The position numbers were made by a program, and so were the translations under genes. From an uncultured Nitrososphaerota archaeon (lineage in GTDB: Archaea; Asgardarchaeota; Njordarchaeia; Njordarchaeales; Njordarchaeaceae): DNA of 64,000 bases. Below the pieces are notes generated by a model that ran no database searches, had not been told where the DNA came from, and saw only the letters and a list, made by a program, of their open reading frames with translations. Below, one piece after another: positions 17,834 through 22,401 of the stretch; within the stretch, counting starts at the first letter, position 1, and each line of letters opens with the position of its first letter. The stretch spans positions 32,001 to 96,000 of the forward strand of contig CAZFGR010000001.1 in assembly GCA_964518475.1 (NCBI GenBank), in the 5' to 3' direction.

Positions 17834-18415
17834 CTAGTCACCCCCACCCGGTCCCTTAGCCAACATGTCAATAACTATTTCATCAATTAATTCGGGGGGA
17901 GGCATTAGAGCTTGCCCAAGTTCTGTCAAAATGATTTTTCCAGAATCAGCGTCGAGTCTAATGATTTTCTCTCTTTCGAGCTTCTTAAGAGCCTTTCGCA
18001 AGAGCTTATCTACTTTTTCTTCATCACCAATAAGGGCTAGCAAATCGTTTCTTAACACTGATAAGAAAATTTCTCCTCCCTTACTTCTAAAAAATATAAG
18101 CGCCAGGACACCCATGACATCCTTACTATAAGGCCGTAACTCCCCAAGTTTTATAGCTGGATCAATCACAGCTACGAAAATCTCGCTTCGCCTACTCCTC
18201 CTAACAACTCGTACCCTCTTAAGTTTTAGCCCAATCTTCTCGAACCTTCTCTCAAGCTCTTTTAAGCATTCTTCTAGAGGGATCCGTGATTTCTTCAAAA
18301 TCTTTATTACCTTGCTCACCGGTGCACCTATACTTCTATAACGACTGGCTAGGATATAGGCCGCCGCCTCCCGAATCGCTTGTTCAGCTTCCTCTGGTAA
18401 ATCTTTGCTACTCAT
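17834..18415 (-). CDS. Tandem winged-helix KITE-like protein (Nse1/Nse3/MAGE/ScpB-like)
   Basis: Two WH-like halves (LKELERRFEKIGLKLKRV; MGVLALIFFRSKGGEI...ALKKLEREKII...IILTELG); lies in an SMC gene cluster. Confidence 0.65.
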   Translation of the reverse strand: MSSKDLPEEAEQAIREAAAYILASRYRSIGAPVSKVIKILKKSRIPLEECLKELERRFEKIGLKLKRVRVVRRSRRSEIFVAVIDPAIKLGELRPYSKDVMGVLALIFFRSKGGEIFLSVLRNDLLALIGDEEKVDKLLRKALKKLEREKIIRLDADSGKIILTELGQALMPPPELIDEIVIDMLAKGPGGGD

Positions 18416-19097
18416 ATCGTTTCACCTTAACGATGTTCTCCTTATAATCATACAATAAATTACCATTTTTCAACAGTCTTAACACTCCAATAACACGTAG
18501 TTTCACTTCTAGCTCCGTCTGCACTAACTCCCGTCTTCTTACTACTTCCTCTATTCTACACTTCCCCTCGTTTTTTATTATTTCATTAAGTAATGTCTCC
18601 TCCAACTTCTTCAGGAAAGAATTCTTTTTGAGTAGATGAGTTACTATCTCAGGCAATACTCTCTTTAACCTCTTCTTTAACGCTTTCCGAACCTTTTGTC
18701 CTCCAAGAATTAGTTGTTCAAGACCTTCTTTTAACGCTTCATATGAAAATCCTTGGATAGAAACAATATGTGTGATGGGGAATTCTTCGCGTTTAACGGC
18801 TTCTAGAACCATCTTTATACTTGATAAGGGTTTGTTGAGAGAAACTTTACTAGCTTGTAATAACTGTTCAACATAATTGTGTCTAGCTTTAACATAAAGA
18901 TTAAGCATTTGAAAGAAAGAGATGCCAAGATCCGTATCCCTAATCAGAATACGCCTAACATCAGCATTATCTGATATGTCTACGATATTATTGAGAATAA
19001 TCCGTGGAAGACCCTCAGCCCCTGTCTTAATGTATTCTTTCATTAACCTAATTGTTCTTACCACGATACCCCGATTCTTATCACGGCTACGACTCAT
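18408..19097 (-). CDS. Putative kleisin (ScpA/Nse4-like)
   Basis: Helical N-terminus and C-terminal WH-like LRVIGVLRLLKNGNLLYD; located between the SMC and KITE-like genes. Confidence 0.5.
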   Translation of the reverse strand: MSRSRDKNRGIVVRTIRLMKEYIKTGAEGLPRIILNNIVDISDNADVRRILIRDTDLGISFFQMLNLYVKARHNYVEQLLQASKVSLNKPLSSIKMVLEAVKREEFPITHIVSIQGFSYEALKEGLEQLILGGQKVRKALKKRLKRVLPEIVTHLLKKNSFLKKLEETLLNEIIKNEGKCRIEEVVRRRELVQTELEVKLRVIGVLRLLKNGNLLYDYKENIVKVKRYE

Positions 19098-19134: not shown

Positions 19135-22100
19135 TCACTTTAATTTAGTAACTAGTTCCTTAATACTAATAGGTACAACTATAGACTTCTTTTTCTCCTC
19201 ATCATAATGCATATATACTATGTTATCGGCTGTTAAGAGAATTTCCTCTCTATGAGTAGTAGTTATGATTCCTTGAAAGTTCTTCAATGATCTTTTGATA
19301 ACGTACATAATTTCCTCTAAGCTCTTATCATCTAGGAAAACATCAAACTCGTCAAACATATAAAGGGGAGCAGGAGCTGTTAAGAAAAGAGCTATAATCA
19401 TTAACATTATAGCCGTCGTTTTTTCTCCAGAACTAAAACCCCCCTTATCAATCTCCACCGGTTTATCCCTATGAATGTCTATAGTGATTGAAAAATGGAG
19501 TTCTTCGGGTGAATCACCCTCCAACATTATTTCGCCGCGTGCCCCAATATATGATAAAAGCTCTTGGTAGTTCTCGTTAGCTTTCATAATCATTTTTCTT
19601 ACAGAATTTATGAGATCGAGCAGTTCACGAGAATACAATTTTTTAATTTCTTGCACTTCAATATCCAATTCCTTAATTCTTCTCTTGATTTCTTCAATTC
19701 TTTGGAAAAACTCTTCAACTTCAAAAGCTTCTGACTCCATTTTAAAAATTGCTTCCTTATAGCTCTTTACACCCTCTTCTAGCTCTAAAGCTAGTTTTTC
19801 AAGATCATTTATATTCATGGCTTCCACAAGATTATTGGCTGGCTCTACAATTTCTTTTTTAATGAAGTCCTCAGTAGTCTTGTCTCTTGGTATAACATCG
19901 AGTCTCCTCATAATATCAAAAATTACTACTATCTCTCTCCTTGTTTTAGATAATTCCTCATCGATATTCTTAAGCTCCCTTTGCAAAAACCGTATCTTGG
20001 CGGGTAACTCCTCTTTCTCACGTTCTAGGGCTTTTATCTGGGCAGAAATATCTGCCTCCTCTTCAATAAGTTTTCTGATTTGTTCTTCTAGGAAACTTCT
20101 TCTTTCCTCCAAACTTAGTACTTTCTGGTTACACTTCTCAATTTTATCCTGCATCTCATCTATTCTCTTGCTCCACGACTCTATAGCTTGTTGAATAGAT
20201 TTTATGCTTTCTGGCGCCTGCTTCAGCCGCTTCTTGATCATCTGTATTCTAGATATAATAGCCTCTATTTGCCTAATCTCTTCCTCCAACGAAAATTTTT
20301 CCTTTTCTAAACTAATAGCTTCTTTAGGCAATCTATTTCGAAGGAAATCTATTTCTTGTCGCAATCTCCTTATCTCAGAATCTAGTGAATCTACCTGCGA
20401 TAAAATCTCGTCTTCCATTTTAAGAAAATCTTCTAGAGAGAAACCGAGAATATCCACTAATATGCTTTCGGACTCCTCTCCGCCAATTCTCACATTATAA
20501 AAGACAGCGCCCGTGACTCTATCTCTCCTCCTCTCAACCACTGAACCATCAATAGTTACGGCTTTACTAAGACCCAGTCTATTAAGGATTAATGCAGCAG
20601 CCTTCTCGTCAAGTACTATGGGAACATCCCAATTCCTGGATTCTATAACGGCCAAGACGGGTTCAGGAGCTATAATAGCGTCGCAGACCCAGCCAGCTAT
20701 TAGATACTCGTTGCCACCTAATACTTCCTTCGCCCTCTTTTTCAACAATTTTCGCTTCTTTTTTGCCTCGTTCACGATTCGTCTAGCGATGTCTAGAGCA
20801 CTCTCACTTATTAATTCTCCAGAATCAGACCTACTTATAGTGATAATATCTATTCTCCCGCCTCCTCGATTTTTCCTCACAATTTCAACCATCTTGTAAT
20901 AAGCTTGAGGCGATGTTACGATAAATGCGGATAATAACCTTTTACCGAGGACATTCTCTATAGCCACCGCGTAATCCCTAAAAATATTTCCAGCAACTCT
21001 CGGTCTTATCTCCAGCAATACCGGACCATAGATCTCGCTTCTCAAAAGTTCTCTAGGAATAGTATTAAATACCCTCTCCAGAGACCCAGAATGATCGAGT
21101 TTTCTCAGCAAATTTCTTAGCTGTGTGCGCAACCCATCCAATTCCTTTATCAAAACTTTTTTCTCCACTTGTAATCTTTCGATATCTTCCCTTATCCCTT
21201 TTATCTTACGGAAAATCTCACTCTCGCTCAGTTTAGCCTCAATCCATTTTATTCTCTCAATTCTTTCAGAAATCATTCTCCTTAATTCCTCAGGATCGTC
21301 GCTGCCCCATTTCTTTCGGATTTCTTCAAGCTCTTGAAGCTCTTTCTCATACTTTTCTCTAACCTCTACAAGCTTTGCTTGATACTCCTTAACCTTCTCC
21401 TCAGCCTTTTTTAGTTCATACTCATACCCCACCTTCTCGCCCATGGTTATTCTCTCAATCTCCGATCTCACGTGCTCATACTCCTTATTTAGCTCATCTC
21501 TTCTCTTCCTAACTTTATCTAACGACTCATGCAATGCGACAATTTTTTCCTCAATCTCCTTGATCCTCCTCTGAAATTCCTCAAGTTCCGTTTCTAATCG
21601 ACTCTTCGCACTCACTAAATACGCCAATTTGACTGCGTAATATCTCGTGAGTTTTTCCCTCGGCAATAATGGGTGGAGTACCTTTTTACTCCTCTTAGTT
21701 ACTTCCTCCTCCAACTCCCTTAGTTCCTTAACTAATTCCTTGCGTACTTTTTCTTTTTCCAGAATCTCATTTTTTACTCTCTCTAATCGATCACGTAGCT
21801 CTTTTAAACCTAAAACACTTAGAAGAAGATCCACTCTCTCCCTAGTTGATAGAGATACCCACTCATTCACCCTCTCCTGCGGCAAGAAGAAGAGCGTGTT
21901 ACGAGGAGAAATATTCACCTTAACCAGCATCTTAATAACATCATTCTTCGTCACTTTTTTCCCATTAATCCTAAAAAACGATTTCCCATCCCTATAAATC
22001 ACGCGCTCCAGAACAACATCGGTATTCTCAGGGAGAAAATCAACCAGTCTAATCCTAGGTCTACCCGGAATATCTACAGTATTACTCATTCTCAACCTAA

Positions 22101-22401
22101 TAATAGCCATACTAGCTCCATACCTGACAAACTTTCCAAGATTCTCTAACCGCTCACGCCCAAGCCCACCAAAGGCTAGTCTAATAGCTTCCAGAACAGC
22201 TGTTTTACCACTCCCCCTCCTCCCAACAATTACGTTTATTCCCTTAGTAAACACTATACGCGTATTCTCGTGCGACATAAAGTTTATCAGTTCCAACTCT
22301 TTAAGCACAATCAGCACCCATGAAGGCTCAATACATTCACAGACTATGAAAACTCTCCCGATAAAATCACTATATACCATGGGAAAAATACACCAATTCA
22401 T
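19135..22401 (-). CDS. SMC5/6-like SMC ATPase
   Basis: NFMSH, Walker A GRRGSGKT, FLPQERV, two long coiled coils around a hinge, signature FSSGEKT, Walker B/D-loop FDEFDVFLD; true start probably GTG at 22317 or 22308. Confidence 0.88.
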   Translation of the reverse strand: MNWCIFPMVYSDFIGRVFIVCECIEPSWVLIVLKELELINFMSHENTRIVFTKGINVIVGRRGSGKTAVLEAIRLAFGGLGRERLENLGKFVRYGASMAIIRLRMSNTVDIPGRPRIRLVDFLPENTDVVLERVIYRDGKSFFRINGKKVTKNDVIKMLVKVNISPRNTLFFLPQERVNEWVSLSTRERVDLLLSVLGLKELRDRLERVKNEILEKEKVRKELVKELRELEEEVTKRSKKVLHPLLPREKLTRYYAVKLAYLVSAKSRLETELEEFQRRIKEIEEKIVALHESLDKVRKRRDELNKEYEHVRSEIERITMGEKVGYEYELKKAEEKVKEYQAKLVEVREKYEKELQELEEIRKKWGSDDPEELRRMISERIERIKWIEAKLSESEIFRKIKGIREDIERLQVEKKVLIKELDGLRTQLRNLLRKLDHSGSLERVFNTIPRELLRSEIYGPVLLEIRPRVAGNIFRDYAVAIENVLGKRLLSAFIVTSPQAYYKMVEIVRKNRGGGRIDIITISRSDSGELISESALDIARRIVNEAKKKRKLLKKRAKEVLGGNEYLIAGWVCDAIIAPEPVLAVIESRNWDVPIVLDEKAAALILNRLGLSKAVTIDGSVVERRRDRVTGAVFYNVRIGGEESESILVDILGFSLEDFLKMEDEILSQVDSLDSEIRRLRQEIDFLRNRLPKEAISLEKEKFSLEEEIRQIEAIISRIQMIKKRLKQAPESIKSIQQAIESWSKRIDEMQDKIEKCNQKVLSLEERRSFLEEQIRKLIEEEADISAQIKALEREKEELPAKIRFLQRELKNIDEELSKTRREIVVIFDIMRRLDVIPRDKTTEDFIKKEIVEPANNLVEAMNINDLEKLALELEEGVKSYKEAIFKMESEAFEVEEFFQRIEEIKRRIKELDIEVQEIKKLYSRELLDLINSVRKMIMKANENYQELLSYIGARGEIMLEGDSPEELHFSITIDIHRDKPVEIDKGGFSSGEKTTAIMLMIIALFLTAPAPLYMFDEFDVFLDDKSLEEIMYVIKRSLKNFQGIITTTHREEILLTADNIVYMHYDEEKKKSIVVPISIKELVTKLK

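What the first reader, a model, noticed from the sequence alone, without database searches (positions are those of the whole stretch)
17834..22401. SMC5/6-like ATPase with kleisin-like and KITE-like partners
Seen: an SMC of about 1060-1090 aa with NFMSH, FLPQERV, FSSGEKT and FDEFDVFLD, followed by a 229-aa protein with a C-terminal WH-like segment and a 193-aa tandem-WH protein. Established: DEFDV(F/Y)MD and NFM.H are SMC6-like and FLPQ(D/E)(K/R)V is SMC5-like, unlike the DEVDAALD of condensin-type Smc; SMC5/6 works with the kleisin Nse4 and the KITEs Nse1/Nse3. Inference: a single-gene, homodimeric pre-duplication SMC5/6 holocomplex (related to coalescin ClsN or Wadjet-type complexes), with no JetD-type nuclease in the cluster.
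Basis: partly seen in the sequence, partly recalled or inferred. Interest (0 to 1): 0.8.

Follow-up and report, generated by a model that had tools for sequence, protein, structure and literature searches.

The report
Asgard SMC5/6-type chromosome complex operon
A Njordarchaeales (Asgard) archaeon encodes, in one tight operon, a chromosome-organising SMC ATPase of the SMC5/6-related archaeal type with its kleisin and KITE partners; this kind of operon is already published, but here it seems to be the only SMC complex in the lineage and always sits next to the primase gene priL.

Summary
Three co-directional minus-strand genes encode an SMC (ORF 19135-22401, likely GTG start at 22308, 1057 aa), a 229-aa protein and a 193-aa protein, and every quoted motif is present.

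- **Organism:** a Njordarchaeales (Asgard) MAG.
- **SMC placement:** a head-domain tree puts the SMC in the non-canonical clade that holds eukaryotic SMC5, SMC6 and archaeal "SMC5/6-related" SMCs (support 99/92). N-head and C-head trees agree. AU tests reject neither a canonical placement (p 0.13) nor a direct sister relation to SMC5/6 (p 0.21).
- **193-aa protein:** a KITE by fold, with the best full-length match in an Nse1-Nse3-Nse4 complex. It is not ScpB-like by sequence.
- **229-aa protein:** kleisin architecture. A controlled complex prediction places its N-terminal helices on the SMC neck (0.66 against 0.20 for the best control).
- **Canonical Smc-ScpAB:** not found in 14 genomes of the order, apart from pieces on ~3-kb contigs, those of one genome clearly GC-deviant.
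- **Synteny:** the order SMC-kleisin-KITE-PriL is conserved across the order.
- **Rejected links:** ClsN/ASRP and Wadjet are not supported.

Archaeal SMC5/6-related operons were already described (Yoshinaga & Inagaki 2021; van Hooff et al. 2024/25). This is a new, divergent member of a known kind.

The parts
19135..22308 (-). SMC ATPase of the archaeal SMC5/6-related type. It is 1057 aa from the probable GTG start at 22308; the open frame runs up to the ATG at 22401.
   Evidence: Pfam SMC_N 3.6e-34 with a borderline hinge. Start inferred from homologues and the DNA. Head tree places it in the non-canonical SMC5/6-related clade at 99/92. Motif table.
18408..19097 (-). Kleisin-like subunit (229 aa): N-terminal helical domain, low-confidence middle, C-terminal winged helix.
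   Evidence: AF2 model with pLDDT 76 and the stated architecture. Complex prediction puts residues 31-87 on the SMC neck helices, score 0.66 against a best control of 0.20. Conserved between the SMC and KITE genes in 12 loci. No Pfam, PDB or significant Foldseek match.
17834..18415 (-). KITE subunit (193 aa, tandem winged helix), not ScpB-like. Its start overlaps the kleisin stop by 8 nt.
16451..17833 (-). PriL (primase large subunit). It starts directly after the KITE stop and is the conserved downstream neighbour of the operon throughout the order.
   Evidence: Pfam DNA_primase_lrg 8.5e-42. PriL follows the KITE gene in every Njord locus that extends far enough, and in none of the other Asgard SMC loci fetched.

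Best explanation
This is the SMC-kleisin-KITE holocomplex of a Njordarchaeales (Asgard) archaeon. It belongs to the archaeal 'SMC5/6-related' branch of the SMC family rather than to the condensin-type Smc-ScpAB branch.

Inferred mechanism, by analogy with solved SMC complexes: two copies of the single SMC dimerise through the hinge and engage their ABC heads on ATP. The N-terminal helices of the 229-aa kleisin bind the neck coiled coil of one SMC, and its C-terminal winged helix binds the cap of the other head. A dimer of the 193-aa KITE sits on the middle of the kleisin. The resulting ring entraps or extrudes DNA.

No canonical Smc-ScpAB was found on trustworthy contigs anywhere in the order. 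The complex is therefore probably the lineage's only, general-purpose chromosome-organising SMC. It is probably co-transcribed with priL.
For: - **Identity of the SMC:** Pfam SMC_N 3.6e-34 plus a borderline hinge.
- **Organism:** named hits are Candidatus Njordarchaeales, Njordarchaeota and Njordarchaeum guaymaensis.
- **Phylogeny:** a head-domain ML tree (93 rows, 369 columns, LG+C20+F+G4 PMSF) gives a canonical clade (bacterial, archaeal, eukaryotic SMC1-4) at 96/98. The non-canonical clade, holding Njord, SMC5, SMC6 and Bathyarchaeia-type SMCs, has 99/92. N-head-only and C-head-only trees both put Njord in the same 45- and 54-row non-canonical clades (SH-aLRT 91/83 and 95/98).
- **Shared characters with SMC5/6-type sequences:** NFM(S/C)H, GK(S/T)A, Q followed by D/E instead of G, DEFDV(F/Y)(L/M)D, and absence of the canonical 2-residue insertion after FKS.
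- **Exhaustive profile search:** 40 of the first 60 non-family hits carry SMC5/6-type motifs. They include a named Cavenderia SMC5, SMC6-type proteins (assigned by motif and tree) and Bathyarchaeota proteins.
- **KITE fold:**. ESM-Atlas nearest clusters are unnamed TACK proteins (0.93), then MAGE (0.85).
- **Kleisin:** architecture. Predicted neck binding scores 0.66 against a best control of 0.20, a mark reached by 58 of 80 solved complexes and 2 of 110 mismatched pairs. The runs agree and partner pLDDT is at least 60.
- **Synteny:** conserved in 12 of 12 loci.
- **Canonical models in the order:** none of 14 genomes reaches the SMC_prok_A cut-off. ScpB and ScpA hits lie only on ~3-kb contigs; GC is 0.46-0.48 against 0.38 in G002, and 0.33 against 0.37 in G006.
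Against: - The AU test does not reject Njord plus canonical SMC as one clade (delta lnL 14.6, p 0.13).
- All non-canonical sequences are long-branched, so attraction between them is possible.
- Single-sequence searches score canonical heads higher: Pyrococcus Smc 6.8e-28 and SMC3 5.5e-26 against SMC6 3e-13. The best NCBIfam model is SMC_prok_A.
- The H-loop (TTTHR) and the GEK of the signature motif look canonical rather than SMC5/6-like.
- The gene order smc-kleisin-kite is the same as in Smc-ScpAB.
- The kleisin and KITE have no sequence-level match to Nse4, Nse1 or MAGE.
- All genomes of the order are incomplete MAGs (66-91% complete), so the absence of a second SMC is not proven.
- Function, stoichiometry and co-transcription are inferred, not shown.
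Confidence: 0.72

Rival explanations
1. It is the lineage's own canonical Smc-ScpAB, evolved so fast that its heads converged on SMC5/6-like motifs and its ScpA and ScpB became unrecognisable.
For: - AU p 0.13 does not reject a clade with canonical SMC.
- The best single-sequence PDB and NCBIfam matches are canonical Smc.
- The H-loop THR and the GEK of the signature motif look canonical.
- The gene order is identical to smc-scpA-scpB.
- It is the only SMC found in the order.
Against: - The ML tree gives 99/92 for the non-canonical clade, and the two head halves agree independently.
- Several shared motifs and indel states are of the SMC5/6 type.
- The Pfam ScpB model finds other Asgard ScpBs at about 1e-33 but finds nothing here.
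- hhalign against ScpB-like kites gives P 0.15, against about 5e-4 to 9e-4 for non-ScpB kites.
- The arms are roughly 130 residues shorter in total than in ~1190-aa canonical Asgard SMCs.
Confidence: 0.18
2. It is a separate, Njordarchaeales-specific SMC lineage that is neither canonical nor SMC5/6-related. Its grouping with SMC5/6-type sequences is long-branch attraction.
For: - The family branch is long (0.95).
- The family is confined to one order in motif and profile searches.
- It has a unique SSGEK signature motif.
- Neither AU alternative is rejected.
Against: - The same placement comes from two independent halves of the protein.
- The placement was obtained under a site-heterogeneous model.
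- Specific motif identities with SMC6, such as NFM-H, GKSA and DEFDV, are hard to explain by attraction alone.
Confidence: 0.07
3. It is a mobile or defence-type SMC system (Wadjet/Lamassu-like), or an ASRP/ClsN-type protein.
For: PADLOC lists weak LmuB, mad3 and JetC matches to the generic head or coiled coil. NCBIfam ASRP scores 77 bits.
Against: - There are no JetA, JetB or JetD equivalents by PADLOC, and no nuclease in the cluster.
- The ASRP score is far below its 300-bit cut-off and comes from coiled coil only.
- The locus is conserved in every genome of the order, among housekeeping genes (PriL, RNA polymerase B, ribosomal proteins).
Confidence: 0.03

Closest known systems
Archaeal 'SMC5/6-related' SMC and its kleisin/KITE operon (Yoshinaga & Inagaki 2021, PMC8665677; van Hooff et al., bioRxiv 10.1101/2024.01.07.573240)
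   Same: - It is a single SMC gene, hence a homodimer.
- It groups with eukaryotic SMC5 and SMC6 rather than with canonical SMC.
- It is encoded with a kleisin and a non-ScpB KITE in one operon.
- It occurs in Asgard and TACK archaea.
   Different: - The family is confined to Njordarchaeales and very divergent: at most about 30% head identity to any other group, an SSGEK signature and a canonical-type THR H-loop.
- In the ML tree it is not the closest archaeal group to eukaryotic SMC5/6.
- It appears to be the only SMC complex in the lineage, whereas the papers stress two co-existing complexes.
- It is always followed by priL.
Eukaryotic SMC5/6 holocomplex (Smc5, Smc6, Nse1-Nse6)
   Same: - Head motifs: NFM-H, GKSA and DEFDV as in SMC6; FLPQ(D/E) as in SMC5.
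- Short arms.
- A kleisin whose N-terminus is predicted to bind the SMC neck.
- A tandem-WH KITE whose best full-length structural match is a chain of the Nse1-Nse3-Nse4 complex.
   Different: - One SMC and one KITE gene instead of paralogous pairs.
- The 193-aa KITE shows no RING-domain match, and no Nse2 or Nse5/6 gene is evident in the cluster.
- No sequence-level match to the Nse4, Nse1 or MAGE Pfam families.
- The H-loop lacks the (I/V)TP motif of SMC5/6.
Prokaryotic Smc-ScpAB (condensin-type)
   Same: - Gene order SMC-kleisin-KITE.
- Homodimeric SMC with a kleisin and presumably a KITE dimer.
- Probably the same general role as the cell's main chromosome-organising complex.
   Different: - SMC_prok_A scores 170 bits against a 729-bit cut-off.
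- The ScpA and ScpB Pfam models do not match.
- The head tree separates it from the canonical clade.
ASRP/coalescin ClsN, and Wadjet JetABCD
   Same: They share the SMC-superfamily ABC head. MksE and JetB share the generic KITE fold.
   Different: - The ASRP model scores far below its cut-off.
- There is no JetA, JetB or JetD.
- The locus is a conserved chromosomal housekeeping context, not a defence island.

Membership tests
SMC proteins (sensu stricto) | Split ABC head with Walker A, Q-loop, signature motif, Walker B/D-loop and H-loop | tested here: met
   Pfam SMC_N 3.6e-34 spans residues 33-1070. All motifs align with reference SMCs. The signature is the variant SSGEK.
SMC proteins (sensu stricto) | Central hinge between two long coiled-coil arms | tested here: inconclusive
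   Pfam SMC_hinge scores 22.7 bits against a 22.5 cut-off at residues 475-543. Coiled-coil families match both arms. No structure of the hinge was predicted.
Archaeal SMC5/6-related SMC (Yoshinaga & Inagaki 2021) | Groups with eukaryotic SMC5+SMC6 to the exclusion of canonical SMC and SMC1-4 in phylogeny | tested here: met
   The ML head tree gives the non-canonical clade 99/92 and the canonical clade 96/98. N-head and C-head trees agree.
Archaeal SMC5/6-related SMC (Yoshinaga & Inagaki 2021) | The alternative placement with canonical SMC is statistically rejected | tested here: inconclusive
   AU p 0.13, delta lnL 14.6.
Canonical Smc (NCBIfam TIGR02169 SMC_prok_A) | Score over the curated cut-off | tested here: not met
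   170 bits against a 729-bit cut-off. No genome of the order reaches the cut-off.
Kleisin superfamily | N-terminal helical domain that binds the SMC neck coiled coil | tested here: met
   This is a prediction only. The score is 0.66 against a best control of 0.20. Residues 31-87 contact SMC 167-203 and 867-902.
Kleisin superfamily | C-terminal winged helix that binds the SMC head cap | tested here: inconclusive
   The AF2 model has a C-terminal WH. Foldseek lists the ScpA, Scc1 and Nse4 C-WHDs only at E 0.3-0.9. No confident cap contact appeared.
ScpA / Nse4 (Pfam PF02616, PF08743) | Match to the family model | tested here: not met
   No hit for any of 12 family members. The six-frame genome search with Nse4_C found nothing. 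ScpA was not found on Njord-type contigs.
KITE proteins | Tandem winged-helix fold like ScpB, MukE, Nse1 and Nse3 | tested here: met
ScpB (PF04079); Nse1 (PF07574); MAGE/Nse3 (PF01454) | Match to the family model | tested here: not met
   No hit for any of 11 members. Genome searches gave none at this locus. The ScpB model does detect other Asgard kites at about 1e-33.
Eukaryotic SMC5/6 holocomplex | Two paralogous SMCs, two paralogous KITEs (one with a RING), Nse2 SUMO ligase, Nse5/6 | tested here: not met
   The genome has one SMC of this family. There is one KITE gene, 193 aa, with no Zn-finger match. The cluster holds no further subunit genes. Nse2 and Nse5/6 were not searched genome-wide.
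Wadjet (JetABCD) | JetA/JetB/JetC models and a JetD Toprim nuclease in the cluster | tested here: not met
   PADLOC gives JetC only through coiled coil (39 bits), with no JetA or JetB. The neighbours are PriL, a ThiF-type E1, TIM and others.
ASRP / coalescin ClsN | NCBIfam ASRP model over its cut-off | tested here: not met
   77 bits against a 300-bit cut-off, with the best stretch in the coiled coil at 664-828.

The most novel reading that the evidence does not exclude
In Njordarchaeales the SMC5/6-type complex has fully replaced condensin-type Smc-ScpAB as the cell's only SMC machine. It is also functionally coupled to replication, through a conserved and probably co-transcribed priL. That would make it a simple homodimeric model for an ancestral, replication-linked role of SMC5/6. 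The head data do not exclude that this family is the direct sister of eukaryotic SMC5/6 (AU p 0.21).
Probability: 0.2. Interest if true: 0.65.

Novelty: new member of a known kind. Interest (0 to 1): 0.4.

Why it matters
SMC5/6 is the least understood eukaryotic SMC complex, and its archaeal roots bear on how the eukaryotic chromosome toolkit arose. This locus adds a well-delimited three-subunit, single-paralogue version from an Asgard lineage. In that lineage it seems to do the whole job alone, and it is invariably linked to the primase large subunit. That makes it a compact candidate for biochemical and structural work on what an ancestral SMC5/6-type ring does. It does not change the published picture that such complexes predate eukaryotes.

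Tried and rejected
- **Small proteins, sequence searches:** Pfam and NCBIfam scans of the two small proteins, singly and for every family member, gave only noise. Profile searches of both against PDB sequences found nothing.
- **Kleisin model:** Foldseek gave no match at E <= 1e-3. ESM-Atlas gave nothing usable for the kleisin.
- **Search with a plant SMC6 (P0080):** it returned only plant SMC6 and spent a search.
- **KITE profile search:** it found only the Njord family.
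- **Motif-based scan of GTDB genomes:** it found only Njordarchaeota loci, plus one spurious cyanobacterial hit.
- **Bathyarchaeal SMC5/6-related gene:** the locus has no adjacent kleisin or KITE, so partners could not be compared that way. The short-form locus was too small.
- **Six-frame genome searches:** Nse4_C, MAGE and Nse1 models gave no hit at this locus.
- **PADLOC:** no Wadjet or Lamassu membership.
- **Possible second SMC at C1:377646:** it is a frameshifted small AAA_15-type ATPase next to a PIN gene.
- **Sequencing runs:** no RNA holder is listed. The DNA holders are sediment and hydrothermal-vent metagenomes.
- **Upstream tRNA:** ARAGORN did not call the tRNA that Rfam finds.
- **Literature:** no paper in the library holds both 'Njordarchaeales' and 'SMC'.

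Full report
**Observation.** The minus strand carries three tightly packed ORFs:
- 19135-22401, 1088 aa
- 18408-19097, 229 aa
- 17834-18415, 193 aa

The kleisin and KITE genes overlap by 8 nt. The next gene, at 16451-17833, begins directly after the KITE stop. All four quoted motifs (NFMSH, FLPQERV, FSSGEKT, FDEFDVFLD) are in the large protein. Homologues start at MLKELELINF and the matching codon here is a GTG at 22308, so the real protein is probably 1057 aa. Pfam gives SMC_N at 3.6e-34 spanning both ends, plus a borderline SMC_hinge. NCBIfam SMC_prok_A reaches only 170 of the 729 bits required. The fourth gene is PriL (Pfam 8.5e-42).

**Organism and distribution.** The window lies in a 2.33-Mb, 121-contig MAG, 91% complete. 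Close homologues of the SMC (29-61% identity, about 19 clusters) come from Candidatus Njordarchaeales, Njordarchaeota and Njordarchaeum guaymaensis. The next-best hits drop to E 1e-18. In 12 loci from genomes of the order, the order SMC, 229-aa gene, 193-aa gene, PriL is conserved. PriL is not adjacent to any of the 20 SMC loci fetched from other Asgard genomes.

**Is it the only SMC?** The genome has no other long SMC. A weak second hit is a frameshifted AAA_15 ATPase. No genome of the order reaches the canonical SMC cut-off. ScpB and ScpA models hit only ~3-kb contigs in two genomes. In G002 their GC is 0.46-0.48 against 0.38 for that genome's Njord locus, and the proteins are 45-48% identical to those of other Asgard lineages, which points to bin contamination. 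The G006 piece (GC 0.33 against 0.37) is ambiguous. All genomes are incomplete, so absence is probable but not proven.

**What is known.**
- Yoshinaga & Inagaki (PMC8665677) defined "SMC5/6-related" archaeal SMCs. They are mostly from TACK, with some from Asgard, and group with SMC5+SMC6.
- van Hooff et al. (bioRxiv 10.1101/2024.01.07.573240) showed that TACK and Asgard archaea carry two operons, each SMC-kleisin-kite. One is condensin/cohesin-related. The other is SMC5/6-related, with an Nse4-related kleisin and Nse1/3-like kites.
- ClsN belongs to the separate ASRP family (PMC9389158).

The open question is whether this locus belongs to that kind.

**Placement of the SMC.** An exhaustive profile search over 1.84 billion representatives gave 29,419 hits. 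After the family itself, the top ranks mix three groups:
- archaeal proteins with NFMSY and DEFDVHMDP motifs (one cluster named Bathyarchaeota, one Freyarchaeum)
- eukaryotic SMC6-type proteins (assigned by motif and tree position) and a named Cavenderia SMC5
- canonical SMCs

Of the first 60 non-family hits, 40 carry SMC5/6-type motifs, although canonical SMC clusters are presumably far more numerous in the library.

I cut the N- and C-terminal head halves of 93 proteins and built a careful ML tree (369 columns, LG+C20+F+G4 PMSF, Rad50 outgroup):
- The canonical clade (bacterial, archaeal, eukaryotic SMC1-4) has support 96/98.
- All other SMCs form a clade at 99/92.
- Within that clade, SMC5 + SMC6 + the Bathyarchaeia-type group (94/94) are sister to Njord + two small Asgard groups (92/81), joined at 81/74.
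- Trees from the N-head alone and the C-head alone both put the Njord family in the same 45- and 54-row non-canonical clades.
- AU tests reject neither Njord + canonical (p 0.13) nor Njord + SMC5 + SMC6 (p 0.21).

Aligned motifs give a mostly SMC5/6-type picture:
- SMC5/6-type: NFM(S/C)H and GK(S/T)A as in SMC6, Q followed by D/E instead of G, DEFDV(F/Y)(L/M)D, and no canonical 2-residue insertion after FKS.
- Canonical-looking: the H-loop (TTTHR) and the GEK of the signature motif.

**The partners.** The 193-aa protein folds (pLDDT 79) into two winged helices.
- The nine Foldseek hits at E <= 1e-3 are all KITEs: chains of the Nse1/MAGE-G1 and Nse1-Nse3-Nse4 complexes, ScpB, MukE and JetB.
- By profile-profile comparison it is unrelated to the ScpB-like kites of other Asgards (P 0.15). 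It is weakly similar to the three non-ScpB Asgard kite types (P about 5e-4 to 9e-4 over roughly 120 columns).
- ESM-Atlas puts it nearest to unnamed Thermoproteota and Bathyarchaeota clusters (0.93), then to MAGE (0.85).

The 229-aa protein has no sequence or significant fold match. Its model (pLDDT 76) has the kleisin layout: N-terminal helical domain, low-confidence middle, C-terminal winged helix. A controlled complex prediction used the SMC head with its neck. It scored 0.66 against 0.20 for the best control, a mark reached by 58 of 80 solved complexes and 2 of 110 mismatched pairs. The runs agree and partner pLDDT is at least 60. Residues 31-87 of the small protein pack on SMC neck helices 167-203 and 867-902, which is the classical kleisin-N/neck bundle. 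This supports binding but does not show it, and the pass may owe something to likeness with solved SMC-kleisin structures.

**Rejected links.** The ASRP/ClsN model scores 77 bits against a 300-bit cut-off. PADLOC gives no JetA or JetB, and JetC matches through coiled coil only. No nuclease lies in the cluster.

**Verdict.**
It is an SMC-kleisin-KITE complex with one SMC and one KITE gene. It most likely belongs to the archaeal SMC5/6-related branch (confidence about 0.7). It is not demonstrably the closest relative of eukaryotic SMC5/6, and it is not related to ClsN or Wadjet.
- It is a new, divergent, order-specific member of a published kind.
- The points worth following are its apparent status as the sole SMC complex of Njordarchaeales and its invariant linkage to priL.

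Noticed in passing
window 16451-17833 (-); loci L009-L020, L041-L052: PriL starts directly after the KITE stop. This adjacency is conserved in every Njordarchaeales locus that extends far enough, and is absent from 20 SMC loci of other Asgard genomes. It may indicate co-transcription of the SMC complex with primase.
   Followed up: partly
window 22587-22708 (+): Rfam finds a tRNA (63 bits, E 2.8e-13) spread over 122 nt, which implies an intron. It lies in the ~540-bp gap upstream of the SMC gene, on the opposite strand. ARAGORN does not call it.
   Followed up: partly
L022:3428-8038 and L034:2792-7639 (other Asgard genomes G017, G023): A third Asgard SMC operon type: a short SMC (943-985 aa) with an SMC5-like Walker B/D-loop (DELTQRLD), then 261-, 187- and 157-aa genes. 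In L022 the last gene has weak FYVE/RING-type zinc-finger matches (Pfam E 0.004-0.03). In the head tree this type is sister to the Njord family (92/81). The zinc-finger gene could be an Nse1-RING or Nse2-like accessory subunit.
   Followed up: partly
proteins P0251-P0382: A large set of metagenomic proteins, mostly unnamed and judged archaeal from the few named clusters and the tree, is only 550-690 aa long. They carry complete SMC5/6-type heads (ENFMSYEY, QSGGERS, DEFDVHMDP) but very short arms. In the tree they group with the 1047-aa Bathyarchaeota form and with eukaryotic SMC5/6.
   Followed up: partly
L025, L027, L029, L031, L033 (other Asgard genomes): A further non-canonical Asgard SMC type (~1120-1160 aa, NFL(S/T)(F/Y)) has its own small kleisin-like and non-ScpB kite genes. 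Its Walker B is DEIDVFLD in the L027-type and DEPSxHLD in L025/L029. It branches at the base of the non-canonical clade. Some Asgard genomes carry three SMC operons.
   Followed up: partly
window 14960-16515 (-): Downstream of PriL lie a ThiF-family E1 (Pfam 1.2e-39) and small ORFs. Earlier notes of this scan read these as a UFM1/UBA5-like module. They sit in the same co-directional gene string as the SMC operon.
   Followed up: no
G002:C93, G002:C128, G006:C145 (L057-L059): Short (~3 kb) contigs in two Njord-genus MAGs carry pieces of a canonical smc-scpA-scpB. The G002 contigs have clearly deviant GC and are probably bin contamination from another Asgard lineage; the G006 contig differs less.
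   Followed up: partly
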